Shown here piece after piece: positions 25,423 to 42,810 of a stretch of 64,000 nt of DNA (position 1 is its first letter; each line of letters begins with the position of its first letter). Below the pieces are notes generated by a model. The model searched no databases. It had not been told where the DNA came from and worked only from the letters and a program-made list of their open reading frames with translations. A program made the translations under genes and the position numbers. The stretch is from Clostridia bacterium (GTDB lineage: Bacteria > Bacillota > Clostridia > TANB77 > CAG-465). The stretch spans positions 83,008 to 147,007 of the forward strand of contig CAAHEI010000074.1 of the NCBI GenBank assembly GCA_900772475.1, given 5' to 3'.

Positions 25423-25472
25423 TATGTAAATTGTTATACACTTTTGTTGTATTATATAAAAGGAGTGAAATA

Positions 25473-28578: not shown

Positions 28579-29865
28579 TTATTTTTCAATTGCAGAGTCT
28601 ACAATTATTTTCATAAGTTTATCTTGTTTTATTTTTTCTTCCATATAATGTCTTACATTCTCATTTTTATTTAAATCGTCATTTGTATTTTCAGATCCGT
28701 ATTGTTTTTTTAATTCATCTATTTTTTCATCTATTTCTTTTGCTTCAACTTTAATATCCTCAAGCTTTTCAATAGCATCTAGTGCAAGTTTTAATTTAAC
28801 ATTTTTTTCTGCTTCAGGTCTTAAATTTTTCTTAAATTCTTCTTCAGTTGTATTCATATACATACAATAAGTTTTAAGATCTAATCCTTGATATGCTAAA
28901 TTAGAAGCAAATTGATTTGACATACTTTCAACTTCGTCATCAATCATAGATTCAGGAATTACAACTTCTGTATTTTCAACTAATTTATCGATTACAGAAA
29001 TTTCCTTTTGATTTTTAGCACTCTCTTCTTTTTGTTTTTTTACTTTCTTTTCAACATCTTTTCTATAATCTGCTAAAGTTTCAAATTCAGAAACATCTTT
29101 TGCAAACTCATCATCAAGTTCAGGTAAAATTTTAGATTTTATACTTATTAGTTTTACTTTAAACATAGCTGGTTTACCTGCTAGATTTTCAGCATGGTAT
29201 TCTTTAGGGAATGTTACATTTATTTCTCTTTCTTCTCCTATTTTCATACCAATTAATTGATCTTCAAATCCAGGTATAAATTGTCCACTACCAATTGTAA
29301 GTTCAAAATTTTCAGCTTTACCGCCTTCAAAAGCTACACCATCAACAAACCCTTCAAAATCTATTGTAGAAATATCATCTTTTTGCAGATCTCTGTCATC
29401 TACAGATACAACTCTTGCATTTTTTTGTCTATCAGATTCAATTGCAGCATCTACTTCTTTTTTTGATACTTTAGAATCAATTTTTTTAACTTCTAAACCT
29501 TTATATTTTTTTACAGTAGCTTCAGGTTTTACAAATAAAGTAACTGTATATATTAAATCCTTACCTTTACCAATTTGCTTTACATCAAGCTCAGGTTTAG
29601 ATACTACTTCTAATTTATTATCTTCTACAGCCTTTCTATATTCATCATCTACATTGTCTTCAATAACAGTTTCATATAAAACACCTTCACCGTATACTTT
29701 TTCTACTACATTTCTTGGAACTTTTCCATTTCTAAATCCAGGAACTTTAAAGTATTTTGAATTCTTATGAAAAGCTTTATCCAATTCTTTTTCGAAAGTT
29801 TCTTTATCCATTGTAAATTCTAATACTACTTTTGAATTTTCTTGTTTATCAATTTTTACATTCAT
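28579..29865 (-). CDS. tig: Trigger factor
   Basis: GFRNGKVPRNVVEK ribosome-binding motif, a central FKBP domain and an acidic C-terminus. The start was moved to ATG 29865 because the SD GGAGG overlaps the upstream ATG. Confidence 0.95.
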   Translation of the reverse strand: MNVKIDKQENSKVVLEFTMDKETFEKELDKAFHKNSKYFKVPGFRNGKVPRNVVEKVYGEGVLYETVIEDNVDDEYRKAVEDNKLEVVSKPELDVKQIGKGKDLIYTVTLFVKPEATVKKYKGLEVKKIDSKVSKKEVDAAIESDRQKNARVVSVDDRDLQKDDISTIDFEGFVDGVAFEGGKAENFELTIGSGQFIPGFEDQLIGMKIGEEREINVTFPKEYHAENLAGKPAMFKVKLISIKSKILPELDDEFAKDVSEFETLADYRKDVEKKVKKQKEESAKNQKEISVIDKLVENTEVVIPESMIDDEVESMSNQFASNLAYQGLDLKTYCMYMNTTEEEFKKNLRPEAEKNVKLKLALDAIEKLEDIKVEAKEIDEKIDELKKQYGSENTNDDLNKNENVRHYMEEKIKQDKLMKIIVDSAIEK

Positions 29866-30215
29866 TTTTAAATCCTCCATTCAAGTAACTTTCATATATT
29901 ACTATTAAACTAACTATTATATTATATCATATTTTTGTAATTTTTCAACCAAATGTTGGAAGAAAAATTTTAAAGTTTTAAAACCTTAAAAAACGTTGAA
30001 AAAAATTTTGCTATTTAAATTAATCGAAAATAAAAATTTTAAATTTATTATGTATATTATGTTGTCAATAAATATTAATTATGCAATTTTTAATTAATTA
30101 TAAACTGAACATTAACATGGATGTATGCTATAATGTTTTACTTGACATAATTTTTTTGCTCTTGTAAAATAATATACCATGAAAAATATTCATGGTATAT
30201 TATTTAAATTACCTT

Positions 30216-30767
30216 TTACATTGACAAAAAATAATCAATTTCATATTTTATTTTTTTTCCAACACCCTTTAACTTTATTATTTCTTTATACTTTTCTCTC
30301 ATCTGATCAACTGTACAAATACCATAGTTATATAATAACTTTATGGTTCTGGTATCAGATAATCCCTCATCTTTGATATCGCCATTTAAAAATTTTATGT
30401 TAAGTTCATGCATAGCATTTTCAAATTTATTCATATCGTAGTCGGTTATTTTATATACATATTGCAAATAATTTTTGGTATACTTTTTTACTTCAAATAT
30501 ACCGCCTATATCCTCTAACATATATGAAATTTTAGAAGAAAACTTTTGGCAAAAAACTTTTTGACAAACTATAAACCCCATACTATTTAATTGTCTTGCA
30601 ATTTCTTCACTTTTTTTAGGACCAATTCCCTTAATTTGACAAAAAGTTGCATTTTCATAACTTGAAATAAGTTCTGATATAGTATGAATTCCTGCTTTGT
30701 TTAATTTTTTTACTTGATATTCAGTGATATCTAGTAAAGAAATTGGGCTTGCACCTGATAATCTCAT
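30216..30767 (-). CDS. Hypothetical DNA-binding protein with two RNA-polymerase-alpha-CTD-like helix-hairpin-helix modules
   Basis: The N-terminal LDITEYQVKKLNKAGIHTISELI...IKGIGPKKSEEIARQL and the C-terminal LSDTRTIKLLYNYGICTVDQM...LKGVGKKIKYEI both resemble the alpha-CTD pattern. SD AAAGGAG is present. The terminator hairpin is at 30174-30199. Confidence 0.5.
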   Translation of the reverse strand: MRLSGASPISLLDITEYQVKKLNKAGIHTISELISSYENATFCQIKGIGPKKSEEIARQLNSMGFIVCQKVFCQKFSSKISYMLEDIGGIFEVKKYTKNYLQYVYKITDYDMNKFENAMHELNIKFLNGDIKDEGLSDTRTIKLLYNYGICTVDQMREKYKEIIKLKGVGKKIKYEIDYFLSM

Positions 30768-30952
30768 AAAAATATTCTCCTTTATATAATAATAGTATAA
30801 GAATTTTTGCTTAGATTAATTATATCTATGCGTAAATATTCTGTACTTGTATTATACACTTATTTTTTAAAAAGTCAAGTCTTATGTTGACTCTATATGG
30901 AAAATATGATAGAATAATAAAAAACTTTTAAACCAAAAATAATTTAAAGGAG

Positions 30953-31531
30953 ATGTCTTTTTTGAAAAATAAAGAAAATATTTCAGAAGAAAATATAATT
31001 AAAATTTTTGAACGGTTAGAAAAAAAAGAAAAATTAACCAAAATGATGCATAAAATTGTAAAAGTTTTATTTTTTGCTATAATTTTTACAGCTATATCAT
31101 TGTTTATACTGCTGATTTTCGAAATGATGTATGCACCATCAAAAAGTGATATAGCAGTAAATAACTTTAACGCAAAGGATCTATCCATTGATTTAGAAAC
31201 AAAATGTGATGTAAATGATTTGACTATAAATTGTGAACTTATAGAAAAAAGTAAGGATAACATTGTTACATCTAAAAAATTAATTGCCTTACAGGTAGGC
31301 ACAATAAAGAAAACAGAAAAGCCATTAAAAGTATTTCTTGAAAAATCAAAATTAGATATTAAAAATAAAAATATACTTGCATTAAAATATAAAAGCTTTT
31401 CTTGTTCCCCAAAGTTTCAAACTGTTATATGCTTTTTGATTATTATGTTCTTTTTGTCATTAATTTTATTTTTTGTTATAAAATTATATTTTCCAGGATA
31501 TGACAAAAAAATTTTTTACTATCAAGACTAG
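30953..31531 (+). CDS. Hypothetical membrane protein (two TM segments)
   Basis: SD AAAGGAG abuts ATG 30953, so the alternative TTG at 30962 has better spacing. No family recognised. Confidence 0.45.
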   Translation: MSFLKNKENISEENIIKIFERLEKKEKLTKMMHKIVKVLFFAIIFTAISLFILLIFEMMYAPSKSDIAVNNFNAKDLSIDLETKCDVNDLTINCELIEKSKDNIVTSKKLIALQVGTIKKTEKPLKVFLEKSKLDIKNKNILALKYKSFSCSPKFQTVICFLIIMFFLSLILFFVIKLYFPGYDKKIFYYQD

Positions 31532-31651
31532 TTGAAATTTAAAAAATTGAATAATTGTATAGAAAGATTATTAATGCAATTATTACTAATAAAGATTAAT
31601 TTTGTACTTTTGATTAATTATAGTCTAAATAGTAACAAAAAATTAAAGAAA

Positions 31652-31695
31652 AATAATAGTCAAGTTCAAATCTGAACTTGACTATTATTTTTTAT
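31652..31695. terminator. Strong bidirectional intrinsic terminator downstream of the glucan-synthase operon and of 30953..31531
   Basis: 17-bp stem AATAATAGTCAAGTTCA / TGAACTTGACTATTATT, followed by T6 and preceded by an A-run. Confidence 0.75.
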
Positions 31696-31855
31696 ATTAT
31701 GAAGAGCATCGCTTTTTTCAAAAGTGTATATTATAAAAAATTACATAAAAATTATTAAAAGTGTACTAAATCATTATATTTCTTAATTAAATTGCAAAGG
31801 ATTGCATTACCTAAGTTTATAATTTTTTTTGCTTGTGCTTTTTTAACTATCTTAA

Positions 31856-33907
31856 TTATTTTAAATAATCTTCAATTATTTTATACATCCATGCAGAGGA
31901 ACCTGTATACCAAGTCCATCCACCTCTCCCAGGATGTTCAGGATTAGAATATATATCTGCTGCTACTACATATGGCTCAACCATATATTTATCTACTTTT
32001 TCTTTGGTATCACTATGGTAAATAGGATTTAAAAATTTTAATATTTCAATTCCCTTTTCCTTATTTTTTAATTCAAAATATGCTTTTGAAAACCAAGTTG
32101 CGCCATGAGTATATTGTCCTCCATTTTCTCTTGTCCCTGGAACATATGCCTTTATATATCCAGGATTATTTTTAGGTTTATCAAACGGTGGATATAGTAG
32201 TCTTACTACCATATTTTCCTTATCAACAAGATAATTATATGCACATTCCATACATGTTAAAAGTTCATTTTTTACATCTTTATCATTTATCATCGAAATA
32301 ACAGCCCAAGACTGAGATATAATATCAACTTTACACTCTTTATTTGAGTACGCACCAAGCACTTCACCATTTTCAAAAAATGCTCTTACAAAATGATCGC
32401 TATCCCAACAATTTTCAATAATGCTATGCTTTAATAAATGTCTTTCTCTTTTACATGTTTCAACCATTTCATTATCTTTCATATATTTTGCTATGCTAGA
32501 AAATCTATCTAAAACATTCATCATAAAAAATGTAAGCCATACTGATTGACCACGTATATTGCTAAAGCCATCATTCCAATCACCATCTCCAATATCAAGT
32601 AACCCATTTGAAGGATTCTTTCTTGATAAGCCATATGTAATTGTCTTTTTTGCATGATTATAAACACTATCTTCTACATTAATATTGTGATAAACATCAT
32701 AAAGTTCTCTTCTATTTCCCATTAGTTTATCTTCTAAATATTTCGTTTTCTCTTCTAATACAGAGTAATCTTTAGTTTTAGATATATATTCACTTAAAAC
32801 ATAAGGAAGCCATAAATAATCATCACTAAAATATGTCCTAATTCCTGCAGAGTTGTGTTCATGCCACCAATGCAAAACATCACCTTTTTCAAACTGTTTA
32901 CTTGAATTTAAAATTATTTGATTTCTTGTAATCTCAGGCGAAGACGAAATCAAGGCTAAGGTATCCTGAAGTTGATCTCTAAATCCAATAGCTCCTCCTG
33001 ATTGATAAAAACCACTTCTAGCATAAAGTCTACATACTATAGTTTGATATAAAAGCCAACCATTTGCCATTATATCAATATATTCATCACCAGTGTTAAA
33101 TTTTGTGTTTGGTACAACAAGTTTCTTCCAGTATTTTTTAGTTTCATTATATTCTTTTACAACGTTTTTATTTGATGAATATTTATTTTTCATGCTTTTT
33201 ATATACTCTTTAGTTTTTGTTTTATTTGCACCTAAAATTATCGAAAATTCTTCTTTTGAATTTGGAGCTATTACTATATTTAAACTTAAGTTATAGCTTT
33301 TTGTATCAAATTCATACGTTGTGTTATCACTATCTTTTACAACAAATTCAAATGCTTCGCACTCAGAAAAATCAATACTATAAGGATTTTTTAAAATCAT
33401 TGTATTATCTTCCTCTTTACACAATATATACCCAGCATTTGTTTCCTGAGATACTCCAAGAGTCGGTTCTAATTTATATTCAATTTTTACATTTTTCTCT
33501 TCTCCATAATTATTTTCAAGTGTAATATATTGAATTTTTATATTATCTTCTTTAGGAATAAATATATCCATAGTTTTTCTTATATACTCTTCTTCCTCAA
33601 GAACTCTTGTATATCCAAATCCATAAACTAAATTATAGTTTTTTTCAAATATTCCCTTAAAAGATTCACCAGGCTTAAATTCAATCCAATCATTGCACCA
33701 ATCAGTAAGCTTATATTCCCTACTATTAATATAATAGGTATACACGGTACCATAACTTGAAATTATAGTACCGAAATTTTTATTAGCCATTACATTACAC
33801 CATGGAAGAGGAGTATTAGTATTTAAAATATGATACTCATCTTCATTTTTAGAAAAACCTCCATATGAATTAAACGCAATGTAATCTGAAGTATTACCTA
33901 TTTTCAT
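31856..33907 (-). CDS. GH94 glycoside phosphorylase module (cellobiose-phosphorylase-like), corresponding to the C-terminal domain of cyclic beta-1,2-glucan synthases
   Basis: N-domain PLPWCNVMAN. Catalytic-domain motifs FRDQLQD, RTYFSDDYLWLPYV, IGDGDWNDGF, GGQYTHGATW and GGWTWYTGSSAW. The start is ambiguous (ATG 33934, 33919 or 33907). 33907 lies 4 nt after the upstream stop, with GGGAGG 12 nt upstream. Confidence 0.85.
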   Translation of the reverse strand: MKIGNTSDYIAFNSYGGFSKNEDEYHILNTNTPLPWCNVMANKNFGTIISSYGTVYTYYINSREYKLTDWCNDWIEFKPGESFKGIFEKNYNLVYGFGYTRVLEEEEYIRKTMDIFIPKEDNIKIQYITLENNYGEEKNVKIEYKLEPTLGVSQETNAGYILCKEEDNTMILKNPYSIDFSECEAFEFVVKDSDNTTYEFDTKSYNLSLNIVIAPNSKEEFSIILGANKTKTKEYIKSMKNKYSSNKNVVKEYNETKKYWKKLVVPNTKFNTGDEYIDIMANGWLLYQTIVCRLYARSGFYQSGGAIGFRDQLQDTLALISSSPEITRNQIILNSSKQFEKGDVLHWWHEHNSAGIRTYFSDDYLWLPYVLSEYISKTKDYSVLEEKTKYLEDKLMGNRRELYDVYHNINVEDSVYNHAKKTITYGLSRKNPSNGLLDIGDGDWNDGFSNIRGQSVWLTFFMMNVLDRFSSIAKYMKDNEMVETCKRERHLLKHSIIENCWDSDHFVRAFFENGEVLGAYSNKECKVDIISQSWAVISMINDKDVKNELLTCMECAYNYLVDKENMVVRLLYPPFDKPKNNPGYIKAYVPGTRENGGQYTHGATWFSKAYFELKNKEKGIEILKFLNPIYHSDTKEKVDKYMVEPYVVAADIYSNPEHPGRGGWTWYTGSSAWMYKIIEDYLK

Positions 33908-33911
33908 TTTA

Positions 33912-36900
33912 TTATACATCCTCCCTATGATCATATGTTAATTCTTTGTTTACTAACTCATCTGCTGTATCATTTTCTTCACTAACTGTTAAAAGTTCTC
34001 TAACATCCTTAATATATCTCTTTGCAAGAAAAGATAATAGATCAATTTCATTTTTATTTAAGACATTTATATTAAGTAAATATATATTTCCTTTTGTAAT
34101 ATCTGAAAATATAGCTCTATCTAATCTAGTTCTTAAATATGTATAAATAGGTCCATTTTGTTTTTGTGCCTCATCAATTAAAATTACAATATCTAAATCA
34201 ATTTTTCTACTTTTAACATAGTCCATAAAGCTTATTACTTCATTAATTATTCCAGCATTTTCAATTTTATCAACATATACAAGTATAATTGGTAAATCAC
34301 CAGAAATTGAGTACTTCCATAATATAGACTGATTTAGTGACTCATTCCAAAATTTGTTATTATTTAAATTTGTTTTTCTAAATAATACGTCTTTTAATAT
34401 ATTGTTATATACTTGAGCTTTACCATTTTCAAGTTTTAAGTATCTTGCCTGAATGCTGTTTAGCTCACTTGCAAGTTTGAAATGTTCATCTATTGTAACT
34501 TCATCTAAATTAACAACGGTATTTGAAATCTTATATTTACTATCTGCAACACCTAAAATGTAATAAAATTCTTGTCTTTCATGTGGATCTAGTATAATTG
34601 TTGCTCTATATGATAGTATTGGCCATAAAGGATATTTAACAACATTTTGGTTATATGCCTCATCAGGATTTTTTATAATCTTTTGCTTTTCAGTTTCTAC
34701 CTCTTTATCCAGATCTATACCGATAAGTTTAGTATATACAAATAAATCAGTATCTTCTTCATTTTTCTTTCTTTTACTTGCAACAAGTATATCTAAATCA
34801 TCGTCATAATATGTTTCAATTTGTAGATTACTAAATGAAGGATGAACAACATTTGTCATATAATCTGTCATAGCAGGTTCCATATACGTATTAATTAATA
34901 TTTCACGTCTTAAACTAGTATTGTTATATATACTTACTTTTTTTATTTCCACGTTATATTCAGGTGAAATAAAAGTAGTAGTTGTTGTTTCTAAATTTCC
35001 ATCTTCAATATATGTTTCAACCCTATTAAGTGAAGAAGTCCAAACGCACTTAGTTGAATTTTTATTATTAGTACTCAATATATTTCCATCTGTTGCACTA
35101 AATCTATTTCCAGACACTTTATCAGTAAGATAAACAAAATTTCCTGTACTCTCTATATCAGTATATCTTTGTTTATTTACTATTTTATCTTTATATTTTA
35201 TAAAACTAGAACCAGTATTTGTAATTAGTGAAGACATATTTGAACCGCGTAAAAAAGCAATATCTAGGTTTTGTTTAAAATCAGGATTCTCGTCTACATA
35301 TACTCTTTCTGCGTAGTCACATGTAACATGAGTTGTATATTTATTAAGATTTTTTTGCTTAAATTTATTGCTATTATCACTTAGTTTTTTCTTTATTTTA
35401 GCCTTCATTCTCTCACGTTCTTTAAGTAATATCTCACACGCTCTAATATTAGGATTTCTATGGAATCTTCTTTGTATAATACCGCTGTTTATATAATTAT
35501 TAATAGCTGTTAAAATCATACCTTGGTGATGTGCCATATATGTTTTGGCAATCTTACTAGTAGAATTTTCATCTAAATGTTCTTTAGTATAATCAATAGA
35601 TTCATAAAATCCAAAAGCAGAATACATGCCTAATTTTTTTAACTTCTTAATATTTTTATATACTTTCTGCGGTGAATATTCAAGCATTAATATAGATGCA
35701 TATGGAGCAACGACAAGATAATTATTAAGTCCTCTTTTTAGTCCAAGCCATGGAATACCAAATTCTTTATATTGATAATTTAACATATCGTCTTTAACAG
35801 CATAAGCTGACTCTGATATACCAAACGGAACGTTATTTTCCTTAGCATATTTTATTTGACTATACATTGTAAAAAATAATGATTGATCAATTAACGTATG
35901 TTCATATGACTTATCAAATAAATATGGCATAAAATATTCGAATGCTGTGCCACTCCACGAAATAAGACCTTTATATCCATCAACTTTTACCAAATTTCTA
36001 GAAAGTGCAAACCAATGTTTAGATGTTACTTGCCTTGAAGCTATTGCAATAAGACTTGTAGTCCTACTTTCAGACATAAGCATATCATAGTAACTATCTA
36101 CGAGTTTACCGTTTTCTTGAGCATATCCAATTGAAAATAAATTTCTAGAAGTATCATATAGCACTGTAAAATCTGTTTCATCAATTATTTTTTGTACAAT
36201 TTCAATTATCTGATTAATTAAATGTTCGTTTTCTACTTCAATCTCTTTTTCAAATTTATTATGACCTAATAATTCGATTAAAAATTGTTTTGTTACATAT
36301 AAGCTTGCTACAAAATTTCCACTATCTACTGTAGATATAAATCTTGGTCTTAAAGGCTCTAGTGTTTTTATGTTGTACCAGTTATATAAATGTCCATTCC
36401 ATTTTTCAAGTTTTAAAATTGTATTAAATACTTTTTGAAGTCTATCTATACATTCATTTGCATCTATAAATTTTAAATCATATGCATCTATTATAGAAAG
36501 TAAAGCAAATCCAATATTTGTTGATGAGGTTCTATTTACAATTTTATATCTTCTATCTTCCTGGTAATTATCTGTTGGTAAATAGTTATTTACATCACTC
36601 ATCATACTATCAAAAAATCCCCATGTTCTTCTTGCTATTTCTATAACATCATCATTTCCTTTTTGATCTAATTTTTTTCTTCTACCGAACAAATGGTCTT
36701 TACCAAGTAAATACGCAAATATTGGAGCAATTATCATTGAAATTCCAATAAGTATTTTAAAATCAAAATATAAATCAAGACCTATACTTGATGGTAAAAA
36801 AGGTATAAAAGCTACAAAAGCACCAACTATAACATTAGGTAACATATTAAAATAATAGTATTTTAATGTGTTTTTAGATGTTTTATCTAACATTTCACCT

Positions 36901-39515
36901 GTAGTCCACTGTAGTAAATTTTTATGTGATATTAACATTCTATATATTGATTTTATAAAAGCATTTAAACATATATATGATTTATATGGAATCGTAACAA
37001 AGTTAAAACACATTGTTAAAAAAACAGCATCAATTCCATGAATAATTGGTATATATTGTACCTCTTTAGAATGTCTAATTTTTCCAAATAAAAGTATATC
37101 AAATATTGAAATAACATTTCCAAAATTAATTGCAACAAAAACTAAAAGGCAAGTTGCAGCAAATACTTTTGTAGAAACAAAGCAAGAAAGTATTATTGCA
37201 ATAAGAGCTACAACATCTAAAAGTGGTCTCCTTAAATTATCAAATATTTTCCATTTAGATAGTAAATTAAGTTTTGACTTAGGACTAATTAACCACTTTA
37301 TAATTTGCATATCTCCTCTATACCATCTATGTGATCTTTTCATATATGCAATATAATTTTTAGGAAAGCCATCTTGAACTTCTATGTCAGAAGCAAGTCC
37401 AGCTCTTAAGATTGAACCTTCCAATAGATCATGTGAAAGCACCAAATTTTCTGGTATTTCATTTGCAACTAATTTGTCAAATAATTCTATATTATATATT
37501 CCCTTACCACAAAATATTGCTTCTCCAAAAACATCTTGATAAACATCAGATACTGCAGTTGTATATATATCTAGGCCTCCAAACCCACCAAATATTTTTG
37601 AAAATATTGATTTGTTAGCATCGACAATATCAAGTCCAACTGAAGGTTGAATTAAGCCATATCCCTTTTTTACAATTTTACCATTCTTAGAAAGTATTGG
37701 TTTATTTAATGGATGAGCAACTATTGATACAAGATCCTTTGCTGTATTAAGAGATAAATTAGTATCTTCATCAATTGTAATTACGTATTTTGCATTTACA
37801 ATATCGTTGTATGTAACATAAAATCTTTTATCTACTTCTTCATCTGTGTATTTTCCTAGTACTAATTTATTAAATTCAAGTAACGCTCCTCTTTTTCTCT
37901 CCCATCCCATATAGCAGTTTTCACCTTTTGAGAACACACGTTTTCTATATACAAAATTAAATAATATATGAGATGATTTGTATTTAGCATTAAGCTTATC
38001 TAATTCTTGCTTGGCATAATCAAGTATTTTTTTATCCATATCTATAACTTCTTTATTACTTGATACGCAATCACCTATTAGCATATAGTACATATTATCA
38101 CTACGATTTGCAAGATATGTAACTTCCATTTTCTTTATCATTTGATCTAGTTTTTCTATAGAAGAAATAATTGTTGGCATGACAACATATGTCACGTTAT
38201 TTTCATCAACTGTTTTTGCAAAATCAAATCTAGGTAATATCTCTGGTCGTAAAGCTTTTCTAAAGAAGTAATTAACCAATTTTTGTGCACATTCAAAAGA
38301 CAATATAAACGTTATAACAAAAGCAACTATTATTGCACAAACTGATTTAAAATGGAATAAATTATATCCAATAAGTATAGTAAATTCTACCGTTAGTAAT
38401 AATATAATAAGAAGATACCATACAGTCTTTGTTGGTTCAATAAATTTATTATATATAACTTCTCCAATATATGATTTCTTTAACTCTTTTTTTAATAAAT
38501 ATCTATACTCTCCAATTAAGAAAAATCCTACGTGTTTTTTATATTTTTTAGAACACTCGACAGCTTTTTTAGCTACATATACTTCTGACAAGTTATATTT
38601 TTTCGCTAATTTTATAATATATTCTCTATATCTAGATTTTGTCTTATAATCACATTTTTTAAATTCGTTTGTATAATCAAGTCTTAAAGCTTCATCTATT
38701 TTACTTACTTTTTCAAATATTTCTCTAAAATTAATTCCTTGTATTTGTTTATATGCAAGAATTGCCCTACCAATATAGTCAGTGGTCTTAGCAATTTCCA
38801 TATGTTCTTTTATAATGGCTTCTTCAACAGTAAATCCAATTTTTTCTGCCTCATCTTTTAATCTATCAAAATATTTTTCACCTTTTGCGCCAAGCTCTTT
38901 TAATCTATATGACATATATTCTATAAAAGCTGTATTTGCAGTTTTTATATGATTTTCATTTATAATATAATCTTTTAAATAAAATTTCTTTCTTAAATTT
39001 AAAAATATCTCTTTACTATACTTAGAATCAGAATTTTCATTTATGATGATTTCTTCGACTTCAATTTTCTTAGCTTGAGAATTCGTAATATTTATACATA
39101 TTCTTGCAATAAATTTTAAAAGTGCAATTTTTAACATTAGAATAAAAAGATTAAGTTCTTCAGAAGTAAGATAAGATAATTTTTGATGTTCTTTTAAACA
39201 ATTCAAAATTAAATTCTGATCAATGTATCCAGTATTCTGTTCAACAAGTTCGTAAGCAAGATAAAAAATAGAAATATATTTATCCCCATCATGTGTTATA
39301 ATAGCAGGAAGCTTTTTAGACTTTAAAGATCTTCTTAATTCTTTTATTTCTTCATACTGTTCTTCTATAATATACATATTGTCAAGTATCCACTGTCCAG
39401 CAGAATGAATAGGTATTTTTAGTTCATAACTACTTTCAAGTAACTTATGTGTTTTACATATAATATTATAATTTTGCTCTGCATTTTTAAATATTGAATT
39501 TAGCGTGTGTTTCAT
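33912..39515 (-). CDS. cgs: Cyclic beta-1,2-glucan synthase-like protein: N-terminal cytoplasmic region, TM segments, GT84-type processive glycosyltransferase, (alpha/alpha)6 glucoamylase-like (cyclization-type) domain and a first GH94 N-terminal-like domain
   Basis: AGQWILDNMYIIEEQ (Cgs N-terminal signature), IDEDTNL (DxD), SHDLLEGSILRAG and RSHRWYRGDMQ (QxxRW-type). Then TSSTNIGFALLSIIDAYDL, VDSGNFVASLY, WSGTAFEYFMPYLF, ISESAY, GLKRG and YMAHHQGMIL. The start was moved to ATG 39515 (SD AGAGGGG, 9-nt spacing). Confidence 0.85.
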   Translation of the reverse strand: MKHTLNSIFKNAEQNYNIICKTHKLLESSYELKIPIHSAGQWILDNMYIIEEQYEEIKELRRSLKSKKLPAIITHDGDKYISIFYLAYELVEQNTGYIDQNLILNCLKEHQKLSYLTSEELNLFILMLKIALLKFIARICINITNSQAKKIEVEEIIINENSDSKYSKEIFLNLRKKFYLKDYIINENHIKTANTAFIEYMSYRLKELGAKGEKYFDRLKDEAEKIGFTVEEAIIKEHMEIAKTTDYIGRAILAYKQIQGINFREIFEKVSKIDEALRLDYTNEFKKCDYKTKSRYREYIIKLAKKYNLSEVYVAKKAVECSKKYKKHVGFFLIGEYRYLLKKELKKSYIGEVIYNKFIEPTKTVWYLLIILLLTVEFTILIGYNLFHFKSVCAIIVAFVITFILSFECAQKLVNYFFRKALRPEILPRFDFAKTVDENNVTYVVMPTIISSIEKLDQMIKKMEVTYLANRSDNMYYMLIGDCVSSNKEVIDMDKKILDYAKQELDKLNAKYKSSHILFNFVYRKRVFSKGENCYMGWERKRGALLEFNKLVLGKYTDEEVDKRFYVTYNDIVNAKYVITIDEDTNLSLNTAKDLVSIVAHPLNKPILSKNGKIVKKGYGLIQPSVGLDIVDANKSIFSKIFGGFGGLDIYTTAVSDVYQDVFGEAIFCGKGIYNIELFDKLVANEIPENLVLSHDLLEGSILRAGLASDIEVQDGFPKNYIAYMKRSHRWYRGDMQIIKWLISPKSKLNLLSKWKIFDNLRRPLLDVVALIAIILSCFVSTKVFAATCLLVFVAINFGNVISIFDILLFGKIRHSKEVQYIPIIHGIDAVFLTMCFNFVTIPYKSYICLNAFIKSIYRMLISHKNLLQWTTGEMLDKTSKNTLKYYYFNMLPNVIVGAFVAFIPFLPSSIGLDLYFDFKILIGISMIIAPIFAYLLGKDHLFGRRKKLDQKGNDDVIEIARRTWGFFDSMMSDVNNYLPTDNYQEDRRYKIVNRTSSTNIGFALLSIIDAYDLKFIDANECIDRLQKVFNTILKLEKWNGHLYNWYNIKTLEPLRPRFISTVDSGNFVASLYVTKQFLIELLGHNKFEKEIEVENEHLINQIIEIVQKIIDETDFTVLYDTSRNLFSIGYAQENGKLVDSYYDMLMSESRTTSLIAIASRQVTSKHWFALSRNLVKVDGYKGLISWSGTAFEYFMPYLFDKSYEHTLIDQSLFFTMYSQIKYAKENNVPFGISESAYAVKDDMLNYQYKEFGIPWLGLKRGLNNYLVVAPYASILMLEYSPQKVYKNIKKLKKLGMYSAFGFYESIDYTKEHLDENSTSKIAKTYMAHHQGMILTAINNYINSGIIQRRFHRNPNIRACEILLKERERMKAKIKKKLSDNSNKFKQKNLNKYTTHVTCDYAERVYVDENPDFKQNLDIAFLRGSNMSSLITNTGSSFIKYKDKIVNKQRYTDIESTGNFVYLTDKVSGNRFSATDGNILSTNNKNSTKCVWTSSLNRVETYIEDGNLETTTTTFISPEYNVEIKKVSIYNNTSLRREILINTYMEPAMTDYMTNVVHPSFSNLQIETYYDDDLDILVASKRKKNEEDTDLFVYTKLIGIDLDKEVETEKQKIIKNPDEAYNQNVVKYPLWPILSYRATIILDPHERQEFYYILGVADSKYKISNTVVNLDEVTIDEHFKLASELNSIQARYLKLENGKAQVYNNILKDVLFRKTNLNNNKFWNESLNQSILWKYSISGDLPIILVYVDKIENAGIINEVISFMDYVKSRKIDLDIVILIDEAQKQNGPIYTYLRTRLDRAIFSDITKGNIYLLNINVLNKNEIDLLSFLAKRYIKDVRELLTVSEENDTADELVNKELTYDHREDV

Positions 39516-39556
39516 TAGATTCAACCCCTCTTTAACGTATATTTATTTACATCATA

Positions 39557-39585
39557 ATTATATATTATATCAAAACTTTTTACAA
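39557..39585 (-). promoter_or_regulatory. Candidate promoter of the glucan-synthase operon
   Basis: Minus strand reads TTGTAA, 17-nt spacer, TATAAT, about 40 nt upstream of ATG 39515. AT-rich context makes chance matches likely. Confidence 0.35.
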
Positions 39586-40044
39586 GATTTTAGGATAATT
39601 TATTATATTAAATTTAATCAGTATTTATTATTTGTAATATGGTTCATAATATTCAAGCTAATATAATATTGTAAAAAACAAAAACACATGTATGATATTA
39701 ATTATATTTGAATGACGCAAAATATTTGTTCTCTATATACTTTTTAATTAATATAAATAAATACATAAATATTATGCATTTTAGAATATACATTTCATTT
39801 TTTTACAAATAAGTTATTCTTTATTTTTTTATTCCAATATAACATAGTATTTAATTTCTAGTGAAAAATTTAATTGGTTTGATGTATAATTATTTATAAT
39901 CTAATTAATTTTATTCATAATTGGCAAAGATTTTTCATTCAAGATAATTATATCATACGTTTGTTCTGCATAAAATATTTATTGCATATTTTTATATACT
40001 TTTCATCGCATTTTTCTACAAAGAAAGAGATAATTCCCATAATA

Positions 40045-40078
40045 CAAAAAATGAGTGAAAATTTTTCACTCATTTTTA
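40045..40078 (-). terminator. Intrinsic terminator ending the mini-ORF transcript (palindromic, potentially bidirectional)
   Basis: Hairpin ATGAGTGA-aaattttt-TCACTCAT, flanked by A6 (T6 on the minus strand) and T4. Confidence 0.7.
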
Positions 40079-40113
40079 TATAGAACTTTAAAAAGTAACA
40101 TCAAATCTAAGTC

Positions 40114-40149
40114 CTAAGTAAAACCAGAATAATAAATCATAGGTTTCAT
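40114..40149 (-). CDS. Candidate mini-ORF B, copy 2: MKPMIYYSGFT (11 aa)
   Basis: SD AAGGAG lies 9 nt upstream of the ATG; TAG stop. The peptide is identical to copy 1. Confidence 0.3.
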   Translation of the reverse strand: MKPMIYYSGFT

Positions 40150-40183
40150 TTGTTTTTTCTCCTTAAAAAGCACCGAACAAAAT

Positions 40184-40216
40184 TTAAACTATAATGTTGG
40201 ATATGAATACAATCAT
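40184..40216 (-). CDS. Candidate mini-ORF A, copy 2: MIVFISNIIV (10 aa)
   Basis: SD AAGGAGGG lies about 10 nt upstream of the ATG; TAA stop. Confidence 0.3.
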   Translation of the reverse strand: MIVFISNIIV

Positions 40217-40287
40217 ATATTAAAACCCTCCTTAAAAGCCTGCACAAAATTTAATTAGAACTAAAATTTTAATTTCATATTCTAGTG

Positions 40288-40323
40288 CTAAGTAAAACCA
40301 GAATAATAAATCATAGGTTTCAT
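40288..40323 (-). CDS. Candidate mini-ORF B, copy 1: MKPMIYYSGFT (11 aa)
   Basis: SD AAGGAG lies 6-7 nt upstream of the ATG; TAG stop. Confidence 0.3.
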   Translation of the reverse strand: MKPMIYYSGFT

Positions 40324-40354
40324 TTTTTTCTCCTTAAAAAGCACCGAACAAAAT

Positions 40355-40387
40355 TTAATCTATAATGTTGGATATGAATACAATCAT
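40355..40387 (-). CDS. Candidate mini-ORF A, copy 1: MIVFISNIID (10 aa)
   Basis: SD AAAGGAGTG lies about 10 nt upstream of the ATG; TAA stop. This is the first cistron after the consensus promoter. Confidence 0.3.
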   Translation of the reverse strand: MIVFISNIID

Positions 40388-40421
40388 ATATTAAAACACT
40401 CCTTTTAAATAAAGTTAATTA

Positions 40422-40443
40422 AATATTTCAAATTTGAAATATT
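40422..40443. promoter_or_regulatory. Perfect 22-bp palindrome (candidate operator) in the 5' leader of the mini-ORF transcript
   Basis: AATATTTCAAATTTGAAATATT lies about 20-40 nt downstream of the predicted transcription start. It is adjacent to the 5' stem-loop TTGTAAG-ttttg-CTTACAA (40445-40463). Confidence 0.35.
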
Positions 40444-40467
40444 ATTGTAAGTTTTGCTTACAACTAT

Positions 40468-40496
40468 ATTATAGCATATTTTTAATATTATGTCAA
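40468..40496 (-). promoter_or_regulatory. Consensus sigma-A promoter driving the mini-ORF array
   Basis: Minus strand reads TTGACA, TAATATTAAAAATATGC (17 nt), TATAAT. Both hexamers match the consensus perfectly. Confidence 0.6.
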
Positions 40497-40684
40497 CGCT
40501 TTTTCGCTTTTTTTATTTTTTAAAATAATTTTATAATATTAACTTTAATCAATATTTAATATTTGTAATATATTTGACATATATGCAATTTAAAATATCT
40601 ATATAGAAAATAGAGATTAAACTAAGTTAATCTCTACTATTTTAAATATCCTTTATGCTTTTGTTTACCTTTCTATTTGATTGG

Positions 40685-40846
40685 CTACATACCTCTTTCT
40701 TTTTTGTTCTGTTCAATTTTAGGTTCAATTGATTTGTTTAATTCATTAATATATTCTCTTGGAACAACATATGCAATCCTACCTTCATGTTTTACACTAC
40801 TTGCCGATTTTGCCAATAGTTGAACTCTTTTTAATAATTTAGACAA
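40685..40846 (-). CDS. Small hypothetical protein (53 aa, MSKLLKRVQLLAKSASSVKHEGRIAYVVPREYINELNKSIEPKIEQNKKERGM)
   Basis: Not in the ORF track because it is under 60 aa. TTG start with SD AAGGAGG 8 nt upstream. Candidate promoter TTGCAC-17-TAAAAT lies upstream, and the terminator hairpin TAGAGATTAA/TTAATCTCTA at 40611-40636 lies downstream. Confidence 0.45.
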   Translation of the reverse strand: MSKLLKRVQLLAKSASSVKHEGRIAYVVPREYINELNKSIEPKIEQNKKERGM

Positions 40847-40995
40847 CGTTTTTTCCTCCTTAAATAGTTATTTTATATTTATTTTTATAGGATTTTATGC
40901 TTTATTTGATTACCATTTTAACATATTATTATTAAATGTGCAACTATATTTTATGTTAAAATAGCGGCTAATTTCTAACCGCTATCTTTAATTTA

Positions 40996-42810
40996 TTATT
41001 TACTATTTTTAGCTCTTATTCTCATAGTAGGATCTAGTATTTTCTTTCTTAAACGAATATTTTCTGGTGTTACCTCAACTAATTCATCATCAGATATAAA
41101 CTCAATTGATTGCTCAAGTGACATTGTAACTGGTGGTACAAGTTTTAATGCATCATCACTTCCTGAAGCACGTGTATTTGTTAAATGTTTTTCTTTACAT
41201 ACATTAACTGTTAAATCATCACTTCTAGAATTTTCACCAACTATCATACCTTGATATACTTCTGTACCAGGTCCAATGAAAAGAGTTGATCTTTCTTGTG
41301 CTTGGAAAAGTCCATATCCAGTTGCTTTACCAGCTTCAAAAGCAATAACAGCTCCTCTTTGTCTTGTTTCAATTTCACCTTTATCTGGTTCATATCCAGC
41401 AAATATATGATTTATCATACCGTTACCTTTTGTATCAGTCATAAACTCATTTCTAAATCCTATAAGTCCACGAGCAGGTACTTTAAATTCAAGTCTTGTA
41501 TATCCTGCATTAGATGTAGATGGAGTCATATTTGTCATTTCACCTTTTCTGTATCCCATTTTTTGCATTACAGTACCAACAAATTCCTCTGGAACATCAA
41601 TAGTTGCCATTTCCATTGGTTCACATTTTACGCCATCAATAACTTTATATATAACTTTTGGACGAGATACAAGAAGTTCATAACCTTCTCTTCTCATATT
41701 TTCTATTAAAATAGATAAATGAAGTTCTCCTCTACCTGATACATTAAAGCTATCTGATGTTTCTGTTTCTTCAACTTTTAAAGAAACGTTTGTTTCTAAT
41801 TCTTTAAATAATCTATCTCTTAAATGTCTAGAAGTAATAAACTTACCTTCTTTTCCAGCTAAAGGTCCATTATTTACACTAAATGTCATAGAAACAGTAG
41901 GTTCATCAATATCTACAAATGGAACAGCTACAGGATTTTCAGGATCAGCTATTGTCTCACCTATATTAATTCCTATAACACCATTTACAGCAACTATATC
42001 TCCGCAATGTGCAACTTCAGTTTCTACTCTCTTAAGTCCAGAATATGTATACAATTTACCAATTCTTAACTTTTGAATTGTTCCATCTTTTTTACATATT
42101 GCAACTTCTTGTCCATTTTTTATGCAACCTTTTGTTATTCTACCAATACCAACTCTTCCTGTATATTCATCAGAGTCAATATTTGCAACTAATAATTGTA
42201 AAGGTTCACTGTCTTCACCAGCAGGTTCTGGAATAGTATTTACAATTGTTTCGAATAAAGGTTTCATATTATCGCTTTTATCATTTAAGTCAGTCATTGC
42301 ATATCCATTTTTTGCAGATGCATATACAACTTTGAAATCAAGTTGTTCATCTGATGCATTAAGATCCATGAAAAGTTCTAAAACTTCATCTACAACTTCT
42401 GTTGGTCTTGCTCCTGGTCTATCTACTTTATTTACAACAACAATTGGTACAAGATTAAGTGCTAAAGCTTTACTTAAAACAAATCTTGTTTGTGGCATTG
42501 GACCATCAAAAGCATCAACTACTAGTATAACACCATCAACCATTTTAAGTACACGTTCAACTTCTCCACCAAAATCAGCATGTCCTGGAGTATCAACAAT
42601 ATTTATTTTTATATCATTATACTTTACAGCTGTATTTTTTGATAGAATTGTTATTCCTCTTTCTTTTTCTATATCATTTGAGTCCATAACTCTTTCTGCT
42701 ACTTGTTCATTTTCTCTAAAAGTACCACTTTGTTTTAAAAGAGCATCAACAAGTGTAGTTTTACCATGATCAACATGGGCAACAATTGCAACATTTCTCA
42801 AGTTCTTCAT
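40996..42810 (-). CDS. typA: Translational GTPase TypA/BipA
   Basis: NVAIVAHVDHGKTTLVD, DTPGHADFGGEVER and NKVD GTPase motifs, with BipA-type C-terminal domains. The start was moved to ATG 42810. Terminator hairpin at 40961-40985. Confidence 0.95.
   Translation of the reverse strand: MKNLRNVAIVAHVDHGKTTLVDALLKQSGTFRENEQVAERVMDSNDIEKERGITILSKNTAVKYNDIKINIVDTPGHADFGGEVERVLKMVDGVILVVDAFDGPMPQTRFVLSKALALNLVPIVVVNKVDRPGARPTEVVDEVLELFMDLNASDEQLDFKVVYASAKNGYAMTDLNDKSDNMKPLFETIVNTIPEPAGEDSEPLQLLVANIDSDEYTGRVGIGRITKGCIKNGQEVAICKKDGTIQKLRIGKLYTYSGLKRVETEVAHCGDIVAVNGVIGINIGETIADPENPVAVPFVDIDEPTVSMTFSVNNGPLAGKEGKFITSRHLRDRLFKELETNVSLKVEETETSDSFNVSGRGELHLSILIENMRREGYELLVSRPKVIYKVIDGVKCEPMEMATIDVPEEFVGTVMQKMGYRKGEMTNMTPSTSNAGYTRLEFKVPARGLIGFRNEFMTDTKGNGMINHIFAGYEPDKGEIETRQRGAVIAFEAGKATGYGLFQAQERSTLFIGPGTEVYQGMIVGENSRSDDLTVNVCKEKHLTNTRASGSDDALKLVPPVTMSLEQSIEFISDDELVEVTPENIRLRKKILDPTMRIRAKNSK

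What the first reader, a model, noticed from the sequence alone, without database searches (positions are those of the whole stretch)
31856..39515. Cyclic beta-1,2-glucan synthase (Cgs/NdvB/ChvB-type) machinery in a low-GC Firmicute, split into two translationally coupled genes
Together the 1867-aa and 683-aa products reproduce the whole domain order of proteobacterial Cgs, which I recall as a single polypeptide of about 2800-2900 aa.
- A conserved N-terminal region (WILDNMYIIEEQ).
- TM segments.
- A GT84-type glycosyltransferase (IDEDT, SHDLLEG, RWYRGDMQ).
- A glucoamylase-like (alpha/alpha)6 domain, the region assigned to cyclization in Cgs (TSSTNIGFALLS, VDSGNF, FEYFMPYLF, ISESAY, GLKRG, HHQGM).
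- Two GH94 N-domain-like modules and a GH94 phosphorylase catalytic domain (FSDDYLWLPYV, GDGDWNDGF, GGQYTHG).

The break falls exactly between the two GH94 N-domain-like modules. It has the look of a real gene boundary: the stop TAA is at 33912-14, GGGAGG lies inside the upstream 3' end, and in-frame ATGs sit at 33934, 33919 and 33907. That favours an intact two-subunit enzyme over a fresh frameshift.

No ChvA/NdvA-type ABC exporter is present in this window. Cyclic glucans are mostly studied as periplasmic osmoprotectants or host-interaction factors of Gram-negatives, so the role in a Gram-positive-type cell is unclear.
Basis: partly seen in the sequence, partly recalled or inferred. Interest (0 to 1): 0.7.

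Follow-up and report, generated by a model that had tools for sequence, protein, structure and literature searches.

The report
A group of uncultured, very AT-rich gut Clostridia encodes the giant enzyme that makes ring-shaped beta-1,2-glucans as two adjacent genes instead of one; the split is old and conserved, so it is a real natural variant of a known enzyme and not a sequencing error.

Summary
On the minus strand, 33912-39515 encodes 1867 aa and 31856-33907 encodes 683 aa. [quoted passage not shown] Matches to Agrobacterium Cgs (8RF0) have E=4e-230 and 1.6e-126.

Every catalytic residue I could map is present and invariant in 41-42 related species. These cover the GT84 D/DxD/D/RW motifs, the primer Tyr, the GH189 Glu/Glu/His-His set and the GH94 Asp.

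The split is not a frameshift. All 42 species-level genomes of this clade (56-99% aa identity) carry the same gene pair. This includes Clostridium sp. CAG:465, which is 99% identical to the window. The stop-to-start distance ranges from -38 to +35 nt, the frame relation varies, and a Shine-Dalgarno plus ATG precedes most downstream genes.

The break lies in the linker between the Rossmann-fold-like subdomain and GP2. The small protein therefore starts at the natural N-terminus of a canonical GH94 phosphorylase. GP1, which in the fused enzyme helps form the phosphorylase pocket, stays on the large subunit. I infer an obligate heteromer.

Cgs homologues in Firmicutes are already known (Thermoanaerobacter italicus). 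The new element is the conserved two-subunit architecture. Product, complex formation and export are untested. Moderate interest.

The parts
39557..39585 (-). Promoter-like site (TTGTAA-17-TATAAT) about 40 nt upstream of the large gene
   Evidence: Consensus scan only. The region is so AT-rich that such matches are no more frequent than in shuffled sequence, so this is weak evidence.
33912..39515 (-). Large subunit gene (1867 aa plus stop TAA at 33912-33914): NTD, TM1-2, GT84, TM3-6, cyclization domain (GH189), GP1 and RFL
   Evidence: Residues 9-1073 align to Agrobacterium Cgs 59-1113, and residues 1110-1783 to 1261-1937 (8RF0 numbering), E=4e-230.
38436..39515 (-). N-terminal scaffold domain (about residues 1-360, includes WILDNMYIIEEQ)
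   Evidence: Aligned to the Agrobacterium Cgs NTD. Mean identity within the clade is 65%. Boundaries are approximate.
37236..38270 (-). GT84 glycosyltransferase domain (about residues 416-760). It contains D482, D582/D584 (IDEDT), primer Tyr651, D696 (SHDLLEG) and R730-W731/R733 (HRWYRGD)
   Evidence: Residue-by-residue alignment to 8RF0 D527, D624/D626, Y694, D739 and R773/W774/R776 (roles from PMC10901819). All are invariant in 41 species.
36702..38435 (-). Span containing the predicted membrane anchor. The two hydrophobic blocks are residues 365-410 (2 helices, about 38286-38423) and 768-937 (about 4-5 helices, about 36705-37214); the GT84 domain lies between them
   Evidence: Kyte-Doolittle scan. 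The layout matches the 6-helix TM domain described for Agrobacterium Cgs. The helix count is not exact.
35364..36701 (-). Cyclization (CY, GH189) domain, about residues 939-1384. It contains D1064, E1149 (acid/base), E1193, E1235 (nucleophile, GISES) and H1329/H1330
   Evidence: Match to 8WY1 at E=1e-128. Positions map to TiCGS E1356, E1400, E1442 and H1536/H1537, and to Agrobacterium D1104 and E1300 (roles from PMC10834661). All are invariant in 41 species.
34440..35363 (-). GP1: first GH94-type beta-supersandwich module (about residues 1385-1692), equivalent to Ndom1 of LpSOGP
   Evidence: Pfam PF06165 covers residues 1421-1655 at 2.3e-28. The domain map comes from PMC10901819. Clade identity is about 59%.
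33915..34439 (-). Rossmann-fold-like (RFL) subdomain (about residues 1693-1835) plus a poorly conserved acidic C-terminal tail (1836-1867)
   Evidence: Residues 1726-1783 align to Agrobacterium 1880-1937, inside RFL 1847-2012. Clade identity is 63% for RFL and 24% for the tail.
33905..33925 (-). Gene junction: SD GGGAGG 33925-33920, stop TAA 33914-33912, 4-nt spacer, start ATG 33907-33905
   Evidence: Read directly from the sequence. The same junction occurs in L003 and L004, and equivalent SD plus ATG junctions occur in most of 40 species.
31856..33907 (-). Small subunit gene (683 aa plus stop). GP2 (about residues 1-250, second beta-supersandwich) and GP3 (about 251-683, GH94 (alpha/alpha)6 catalytic domain) with D311 (FRDQL) and catalytic acid D446 (GDWND)
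   Evidence: Residues 214-677 align to 8RF0 2300-2760. D311 matches D2393 and D446 matches D2528, and both are invariant in 42 species. Residue 14 aligns to residues 2-3 of cellobiose and chitobiose phosphorylases.
31649..31692 (.). Bidirectional terminator-like hairpin (20-bp stem) 164 nt downstream of the small gene

Best explanation

Large subunit (membrane-anchored):
- It carries the N-terminal scaffold, the GT84 polymerase, the GH189 cyclization domain, and the GP1 and RFL modules.
- By analogy with Agrobacterium Cgs, GT84 primes a beta-1,2-glucan on its own Tyr651 and extends it from UDP-glucose.
- The cyclization domain then releases the chain as a ring by transglycosylation. Glu1235 acts as nucleophile and Glu1149 as acid/base.

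Small subunit (soluble):
- It is a complete canonical GH94 unit: a beta-sandwich domain, a linker and the catalytic barrel with Asp446.
- In fused Cgs and in the monomeric phosphorylase LpSOGP, the phosphorylase pocket lies between the extra N-terminal sandwich (GP1/Ndom1) and the catalytic barrel.
- Here the pocket must therefore assemble in trans, between GP1 on the large subunit and GP3 on the small one.
- The docked small subunit would trim the growing chain by phosphorolysis to control ring size. It would also complete the glucan-binding platform that the Agrobacterium work found essential.

The close spacing of the genes, with an SD inside or just after the upstream gene, would keep the two subunits in balance.

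Shown here: homology, collinearity, residue conservation, and conservation of the split and of both reading frames in 42 species.
Inferred: physical association, the in-trans pocket, the product, and stoichiometric coupling.
For: 1. Collinearity with nothing missing.
- Large residues 36-1862 align to residues 32-1791 of the fused 2558-aa P0127. Small residues 12-677 align to 1810-2475 of the same protein.
- Against Agrobacterium Cgs the break falls between RFL (which ends at 2012) and residue 2041.

2. All mapped catalytic and priming residues are present. They are invariant in 41-42 species.

3. The split is ancient and maintained.
- 42 of 42 species-representative genomes at 56-99% identity have a pair of about 1855-1900 aa and about 680-700 aa.
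- Junction gaps range from -38 to +35 nt and occur in all three frame relations.
- Most have GGAGG/GAGG 5-10 nt before the downstream ATG.

4. Gene order typA - cgs large - cgs small - tig - clpP - clpX is kept in a relative whose small subunit is 64% identical.

5. Both subunits diverge in step: 51-99% for the large one and 56-99% for the small one.
- GP1 and RFL on the large subunit stay conserved at 59-63%.
- Only the 32-residue tail at the break is free to vary, at 24%.

6. Published structure and function work.
- Cgs GP1-3 correspond to the LpSOGP subdomains. Truncating the C-terminal half (Cgs1-1846) abolishes function, while the catalytic Asp mutant D2528A has little effect (PMC10901819).

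7. The small protein is far closer to the C-terminal part of Cgs (E=1.6e-126) than to any free-standing phosphorylase (about 1e-40).
Against: - There is no experimental or structural evidence here that the two proteins bind each other.
- The small protein has the architecture of dimeric GH94 phosphorylases. In principle it could form its pocket by homodimerising.
- In this window the SD-to-ATG spacing is 12 nt, which is long. Several relatives have 17-35-nt spacers, so strict translational coupling is not universal.
- No ChvA/NdvA-type exporter lies in the window or in the conserved neighbourhood. The fate of the product in a presumably single-membrane cell is unexplained.
- The organism is uncultured, and no cyclic glucan has been reported from it.
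Confidence: 0.75

Rival explanations
1. The break is a recent frameshift, a pseudogene or an assembly error in a gene that is normally continuous.
For: The two ORFs are in different frames and only 4 nt apart. This is what a 1-2-nt indel would produce.
Against: - An independent assembly of the same species (L003) and an 84%-identical species (L004) have the identical junction.
- All 42 related species are split, with different gaps and frame relations, each with its own start codon and most with their own SD.
- No continuous ORF exists in any relative closer than about 40% identity.
- Both ORFs remain intact with invariant active sites.
- The one apparent truncation, in L004, is a run of N.
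Confidence: 0.01
2. The two proteins work separately. The large one is a self-sufficient synthase-cyclase. The small one is a free, homodimeric GH94 phosphorylase that recycles beta-1,2-gluco-oligosaccharides to glucose-1-phosphate.
For: - The small protein begins at the natural N-terminus of canonical GH94 enzymes, which form their pockets by homodimerising (PMC5309861).
- A related stand-alone 769-aa protein (P0122) sits with no large-subunit gene beside it in L085.
- The phosphorylase activity of Agrobacterium Cgs is dispensable for function.
Against: - The pair is adjacent and tightly spaced in all 42 species.
- GP1 and RFL have no obvious role without GP2-GP3, yet they are retained and conserved on the large subunit.
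- In Agrobacterium, removing the region equivalent to RFL plus the small subunit (construct Cgs1-1846) abolishes function.
- The small protein's nearest relatives are all C-terminal parts of Cgs.
Confidence: 0.12
3. Programmed ribosomal frameshifting or stop-codon read-through joins the two ORFs into one Cgs-length polypeptide.
For: In some relatives the ORFs are in the same frame, separated by one stop and a spacer without further stops (for example L027 and L030).
Against: - Frame relations differ among species (0, +1 and +2). Gaps range from -38 to +35 nt, and no shared slippery sequence is visible.
- Most junctions instead carry an SD and an ATG at the position of the conserved Met1.
Confidence: 0.02
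4. The machinery is intact but makes something other than the classical DP 17-25 cyclic beta-1,2-glucan. It might make linear or differently sized beta-1,2-glucans, because separating the length-control module changes processing.
For: - No exporter or succinyl/phosphoglycerol-modifying genes lie nearby.
- The subunit ratio could vary where spacers are long.
- The TM1-2 region is poorly conserved, at 28%.
Against: The cyclization-domain nucleophile, acid/base and supporting His-His are invariant. This domain is 69% conserved, and the isolated T. italicus domain, its closest solved relative, cyclises linear glucans on its own (PMC10834661).
Confidence: 0.1

Closest known systems
Agrobacterium tumefaciens Cgs/ChvB (PDB 8RF0, 8RF9; also Brucella Cgs and rhizobial NdvB)
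   Same: - The domain order is the same: NTD, 2 TM, GT84, 4 TM, CY, GP1, RFL, GP2, GP3.
- All mapped catalytic residues and the primer tyrosine are conserved.
- E-values are 4e-230 and 1.6e-126.
   Different: - This enzyme is two polypeptides (1867 + 683 aa) instead of one of about 2800 aa, broken in the RFL-GP2 linker.
- It is about 250-300 aa shorter overall. In particular, the roughly 120-residue helical insert of the Agrobacterium CY domain is largely absent: the alignment gap spans Agrobacterium 1113-1261 against window 1073-1110.
- Identity is about 30-40%.
- The host is a 26%-GC gut Clostridia lineage, and no ChvA-type exporter is nearby.
Thermoanaerobacter italicus CGS (Thit_1831; cyclization domain structure 8WY1, founding member of GH189)
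   Same: - It is the closest solved relative of the cyclization domain, at E=1e-128.
- The catalytic Glu1356, Glu1442, Glu1400 and His1536/1537 equivalents are all present.
- It is also from a Firmicute.
   Different: The published residue numbering (PMC10834661) implies that TiCGS is a single long polypeptide. Only its cyclization domain has been studied. No split form is mentioned in that paper or in the 2025 review PMC11842490.
GH94 phosphorylases: monomeric LpSOGP (1,2-beta-oligoglucan phosphorylase) and dimeric cellobiose/chitobiose phosphorylases
   Same: - The small subunit has the canonical GH94 layout starting at the same N-terminus.
- It carries the catalytic Asp in the DWND context.
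- Matches to cellobiose phosphorylases are around E=1e-40.
   Different: - It ends at about position 732-745 of cellobiose phosphorylases that are about 820 aa long, so it lacks their C-terminal domain.
- It is far closer to Cgs GP2-GP3 than to these enzymes.
- Its likely pocket partner, the Ndom1/GP1 equivalent, sits on a different polypeptide that is itself a synthase.
Other naturally split Cgs genes found here in metagenomes (L083, L084, L086)
   Same: They break at the same RFL|GP2 boundary. The downstream gene starts at the equivalent of '..F.N.YGGF'.
   Different: They are single contigs at 41-43% identity, from organisms with 27-51% GC. In a rough NJ tree, most are scattered among fused forms. 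This suggests independent fissions, but none is confirmed across many genomes as the window's clade is.

Membership tests
[quoted passage not shown] | GT84 glycosyltransferase with UDP-coordinating Asp, DxD, catalytic-base Asp and RW motif | tested here: met
   D482, D582/D584, D696 and R730-W731 align to Agrobacterium D527, D624/D626, D739 and R773-W774 (roles). All are invariant in 41 species.
[quoted passage not shown] | Self-priming tyrosine in the IF1-homology loop (Agrobacterium Y694) | tested here: met
   Y651 in GGLDIYTTAVSDVYQD aligns to Y694 in GIDPYVFTVSDVYQD. It is invariant in 41 species. Glycosylation itself was not tested.
[quoted passage not shown] | Compact membrane anchor with 2 helices before and 4 after the GT domain | tested here: inconclusive
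   The hydropathy scan finds 2 segments at 365-410 and about 4-5 segments at 768-937. This fits the expected layout, but no dedicated topology predictor was run.
[quoted passage not shown] | GH189 cyclization domain with Glu nucleophile, Glu acid/base, supporting Glu and His-His | tested here: met
   E1235, E1149, E1193 and H1329/H1330 align to TiCGS E1442, E1356, E1400 and H1536/H1537 (roles). All are invariant.
[quoted passage not shown] | C-terminal GH94 phosphorylase region (GP1, RFL, GP2, GP3) with catalytic Asp | tested here: met
   All four modules are present. Small-subunit D446 and D311 align to Agrobacterium D2528 and D2393 and are invariant in 42 species. The region is divided between two polypeptides.
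[quoted passage not shown] | All domains on one polypeptide of about 2500-2900 aa | tested here: not met
   There are two ORFs of 1867 and 683 aa, and the same is true in 42 of 42 related species. This is the feature that makes it a variant.
[quoted passage not shown] | Product is cyclic beta-1,2-glucan made from UDP-glucose | not testable with these tools
   This needs expression and product analysis.
Cgs system of Proteobacteria | Dedicated ABC exporter (ChvA/NdvA/Cgt) for transfer to the periplasm | tested here: not met
   Pfam scans of 20 ORFs in the window, including all the large ones, found no ABC transporter. None is present in the conserved neighbourhood of L001 either. The rest of the genome could not be searched.
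CAZy GH94 (small subunit on its own) | GH94 catalytic (alpha/alpha)6 domain preceded by a beta-supersandwich domain, with the catalytic Asp | tested here: met
   PF17167 at 5.9e-95 over 259-681 and PF06165 at 1.3e-24. Cellobiose phosphorylase hits are around 1e-40. D446 is conserved.

The most novel reading that the evidence does not exclude
A whole clade of abundant, uncultured, genome-reduced gut Clostridia keeps a two-subunit Cgs as a core gene pair beside typA, tig and clpPX. The clade includes CAG:465 and relatives from humans, rabbits, ruminants and poultry.

The GH94 pocket of this enzyme is rebuilt in trans between a synthase subunit and a detachable phosphorylase subunit. If so, these single-membrane commensals make cyclic beta-1,2-glucans, molecules so far studied as periplasmic host-interaction factors of Proteobacteria.

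The glucans would either stay in the cytoplasm or leave through an unknown route. Either way they could be an unrecognised microbiome-derived glycan seen by the host.
Probability: 0.45. Interest if true: 0.6.

Novelty: new variant of a known kind. Interest (0 to 1): 0.42.

Why it matters
- **A more tractable enzyme.** Cgs is a 2800-residue, three-enzyme machine that is hard to express and dissect. A natural version with the length-control phosphorylase on a separate polypeptide marks a genuine module boundary. It also offers a simpler system for asking two questions: what the C-terminal half contributes as a scaffold versus as a catalyst, and whether the GH94 pocket can form between two chains.
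- **A possible new source of cyclic glucans.** Cyclic beta-1,2-glucan synthesis appears to be a conserved trait of a widespread gut Clostridia lineage. The small-subunit cluster alone has 603 member sequences. This raises testable questions about the role and export of these glucans in cells without a periplasm.
- **Annotation.** The two halves are currently labelled 'hypothetical protein' or 'cellobiose phosphorylase'. This hides the pathway.

Tried and rejected
- **Frameshift or assembly artefact:** rejected after surveying junctions in 42 species genomes. The apparent truncation of the small gene in L004 is a masked run of N.
- **Programmed recoding:** rejected because frame relations and gaps vary, and because most junctions carry an SD plus ATG.
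- **Pfam and NCBIfam for GT84:** no dedicated model hit. There were only weak MdoH (GT2) matches at E=1e-4. GT84 membership therefore rests on the alignment to the solved Agrobacterium structure.
- **Rfam on the whole window:** no family reached its gathering score, so no known riboswitch or leader lies upstream of the operon.
- **Literature on split or Gram-positive Cgs:** nothing on a two-gene form in the T. italicus paper, the 2025 review or the GT84 + Firmicutes hits. This does not prove that none exists.
- **GTDB placement of CAG:465:** a text search for 'CAG-465' with 'TANB77' found nothing. My recollection that it belongs to order TANB77 is unverified.
- **Structure prediction of the complex:** not attempted. 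The tool folds single chains of at most 1200 aa and accepts only window or database sequences. A concatenated GP1-RFL + small construct with a paired alignment could not be submitted.
- **Whole-genome search for a ChvA-like exporter:** not possible, since only loci around the match are held.
- **NJ tree:** it has no support values, so 'recurrent fission' is a suggestion only.
Full report
**What is in the sequence**

On the minus strand there are two consecutive long ORFs.
- The upstream ORF runs from a TTG at 39524. ATG 39515 lies 9 nt after a GAGGGG and is the likely start, giving 1867 aa. The ORF ends with TAA at 33914-33912.
- The downstream ORF has in-frame ATGs at 33934, 33919 and 33907 and ends at 31856.
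- The junction reads ...AGGGAGGATGTA-TAA-TAAA-ATG.... GGGAGG sits at 33925-33920, the stop and ATG 33907 are 4 nt apart, and the two ORFs are in different frames.
- ATG 33907 (683 aa) is the start supported by orthologues. Met1 is invariant in a nine-sequence alignment, and the database cluster containing this protein is 683 aa.

**Homology**

- Pfam finds Glycoamylase PF10091 (residues 1142-1355) and a GH94 beta-supersandwich (1421-1655) in the large protein. It finds a second supersandwich plus the GH94 catalytic domain (259-681, E=5.9e-95) in the small one.
- Against solved structures, the large protein matches Agrobacterium tumefaciens Cgs at E=4e-230. Residues 9-1073 align to 59-1113, and 1110-1783 to 1261-1937.
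- It also matches the Thermoanaerobacter italicus cyclization domain (8WY1) at E=2e-126.
- The small protein matches the C-terminal part of Agrobacterium Cgs at E=1.6e-126. It matches cellobiose, lactose and chitobiose phosphorylases only at about 1e-40.
- No Pfam or NCBIfam model covers GT84. Only weak MdoH hits appear. GT84 membership therefore rests on the structure-sequence alignment.

**Catalytic residues**

I used the 8RF0 chain, which carries native numbering, and 8WY1 (chain position + 1003 = TiCGS numbering). I verified the 8WY1 offset because the expected Glu and His residues fall at the expected positions. The residue roles come from PMC10901819 and PMC10834661. The mapping is:

| Domain | Reference residue | Residue here |
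|---|---|---|
| GT84 | Agrobacterium D527 | D482 |
| GT84 | D624/D626 | D582/D584 |
| GT84 | Primer Y694 | Y651 |
| GT84 | D739 | D696 |
| GT84 | R773-W774/R776 | R730-W731/R733 |
| Cyclization | Agrobacterium D1104 | D1064 |
| Cyclization | TiCGS E1356 (Agrobacterium E1300) | E1149 |
| Cyclization | TiCGS E1400 | E1193 |
| Cyclization | TiCGS E1442 (nucleophile) | E1235 |
| Cyclization | TiCGS H1536/H1537 | H1329/H1330 |
| GH94 | Agrobacterium D2393 | small D311 |
| GH94 | D2528 (catalytic acid) | small D446 |

In alignments of the orthologues from 41 (large) and 42 (small) species, every one of these positions is invariant. A hydropathy scan gives two hydrophobic segments before the GT domain and four to five after it. 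This fits the 2+4 helix anchor of Agrobacterium Cgs.

**Is the split real?**

A search of 5.8 billion proteins with the small protein returned 120 top clusters. Nearly all are 679-697 aa (five shorter ones, 514-645 aa, cover only part of the query), at 63-99% identity, and they are mostly unnamed Clostridia MAG proteins. None is fused to an upstream region.

A scan of one genome per GTDB species found 42 loci at 56-99% identity.
- The best is Clostridium sp. CAG:465, at 99%.
- The others are MAGs from human, rabbit, ruminant, chicken and other samples.
- Below that, identity drops to 40% or less, and the checked genes are single ORFs of 2800-3000 aa in Bacteroidota, Pantoea, Planctomycetota and Melainabacteria.

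In every one of the 42 loci the small ORF is separate from an upstream ORF of about 1824-1904 aa. L011 lacks upstream sequence. L016's large ORF runs to the contig edge. L004's apparent truncation is a run of N.

The junctions differ widely among the 40 species where I could examine them.
- The stop-to-start distance ranges from -38 to +35 nt.
- All three frame relations occur, including same-frame pairs separated by a stop.
- One subclade has a 17-35-nt spacer reading aGGAGGtatatgaaaacATG.
- Most have a GGAGG/GAGG 5-10 nt before the downstream ATG.

This pattern is what a long-standing gene boundary looks like. It is incompatible with a recent indel, an assembly error or a conserved recoding signal.

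Synteny also holds. A relative whose small subunit is 64% identical has typA - (ybaK-like) - large - small - (96 aa) - tig - clpP - clpX. The window has typA 40996-42846, tig 28579-29880, clpP and clpX in the same order.

**Where the break falls**

- At 50% clustering the whole split clade collapses to one representative. The next hits are mostly fused proteins of 2500-2900 aa at about 40% identity.
- Against fused P0127 (2558 aa), large residues 36-1862 cover 32-1791 and small residues 12-677 cover 1810-2475. Nothing is lost or duplicated.
- Against Agrobacterium Cgs, large residues 1726-1783 align to 1880-1937, inside the Rossmann-fold-like subdomain (RFL, 1847-2012). Small residue 6 aligns to 2041.
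- The break is therefore in the RFL-GP2 linker.
- Small residue 14 aligns to residues 2-3 of cellobiose and chitobiose phosphorylases. The small subunit is thus a complete canonical GH94 unit starting at its natural N-terminus.

**Mechanistic inference**

- In dimeric GH94 enzymes the pocket forms between the N-terminal domain of one subunit and the catalytic domain of the other.
- In monomeric LpSOGP, an extra duplicated N-terminal domain (Ndom1) takes that place (PMC5309861).
- Cgs GP1-GP3 correspond to the three LpSOGP subdomains. Truncating the Agrobacterium enzyme at 1846 or 1540 abolishes function, while the catalytic mutant D2528A has only a minor effect. A glucan-binding surface runs from RFL across GP2 to GP3 (PMC10901819).
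- In the split enzyme, GP1 and RFL are on the large subunit and GP2-GP3 on the small one. The pocket and the glucan platform should therefore be rebuilt between two chains.

Conservation fits this picture. GP1 (59%) and RFL (63%) remain as conserved across the clade as the NTD (65%) and GP2 (53%). GT84 (74%), CY (69%) and GP3 (72%) are the most conserved. Only the last 32 residues of the large protein are free to vary, at 24%. The two subunits also diverge in parallel.

I conclude that this is most likely an obligate two-subunit Cgs (confidence about 0.75). The main rival is an independently acting, homodimeric small phosphorylase (about 0.12).

**The same fission elsewhere**

Metagenomic contigs outside the clade also show stand-alone small genes directly after a large gene.
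- L083: GC 51%, 1768 + 679 aa, with GGGAGG 7 nt before the ATG.
- L084: GC 27%, sister to the clade in the tree.
- L086: GC 36%, 2015 + 817 aa.

In a rough NJ tree these are mostly scattered among fused forms. This suggests the RFL|GP2 linker is a recurrent fission point. The tree has no support values, and these are single contigs.

One 769-aa homologue (L085) has no large gene next to it.

**Comparison with what is known**

- Cgs is well characterised in Agrobacterium, Brucella and rhizobia.
- The cyclization domain of a Firmicute homologue, T. italicus, has been solved and defines GH189.
- 'Cgs in a low-GC Firmicute' is therefore not new in kind.
- I found no mention of a two-gene form in the papers read or in text searches.

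The finding is best classed as a new variant of a known kind.

**Open points**

- Whether the two proteins associate.
- What the product is.
- How, or whether, the product leaves a cell that presumably lacks a periplasm. No ABC exporter is present in the window or in the conserved neighbourhood.

**Scores**

Interest is moderate (0.42). A specialist would find the conserved fission and its position neat and useful, but not very surprising. The wider implication is that a widespread gut Clostridia lineage makes cyclic beta-1,2-glucans. That would be more interesting, but it is untested.

Noticed in passing
window 40047-40496 (minus strand), within the 1.47-kb typA-cgs intergenic region 39525-40995: A perfect TTGACA-17(TG)-TATAAT promoter lies at 40496-40468. 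It is followed by a tandem duplication of about 171-174 nt (40096-40233 and 40270-40404, 85-98% identical). Each copy carries two SD-preceded tiny ORFs: MIVFISNIID/V (10 aa) and MKPMIYYSGFT (11 aa). A terminator-like hairpin follows at 40077-40047. There is no Rfam hit, and the peptides are absent from all 87 related loci, including the same-species scaffold L003.
   Followed up: partly
window 39669-40958 and 29952-31859, compared with L003 487-2239 and 10049-10245: The cgs pair is 98.2% identical in nucleotides to Clostridium sp. CAG:465 scaffold FR891293.1, but both flanks differ. The window's upstream intergenic segment has no counterpart in L003, which instead carries two small membrane-protein-like ORFs. 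A 1.9-kb segment downstream of cgs corresponds to only about 200 nt in L003. That segment encodes a 183-aa helix-hairpin-helix protein at 30216-30767 and a 192-aa ORF at 30953-31531. The flanks of the operon are thus strain-variable.
   Followed up: partly
L078:5450-5560 (uncultured Eubacteriales MAG, GC 32%): In this fused-type cgs gene the ORF is broken into 1332 + 1656 aa at a different place. A GC-rich insert of about 110 nt with internal palindromes (ggggtgtggggcatagccccac...ccaccgccaccgaaggtggcggtg) sits there inside otherwise AT-rich coding sequence. It looks like a small inserted repeat element or an assembly chimera.
   Followed up: no
L085:764-3073 (metagenome contig, GC 32%): P0122 is a 769-aa stand-alone homologue of the small subunit and the best hit outside the clade at 44% identity. 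It has a good SD but no Cgs large-subunit gene beside it. It is preceded by a DUF3006 gene and followed by a UvrD/PcrA helicase gene. It may be an orphan or trans-encoded GP2-GP3 protein.
   Followed up: no
window 5208-6944 (+): A 578-aa ORF fuses a DUF1385 domain to a small methyltransferase domain of the PrmC/MTS type. It is followed directly by a whiA homologue (6923-7663).
   Followed up: no
window 8504-9787, 22877-24202, 25431-26612, 59682-61103: Four ORFs of 393-473 aa have no Pfam match at E<=1e-5, in an otherwise housekeeping region that includes polA, lepA, typA, clpPX, tig and serS.
   Followed up: no
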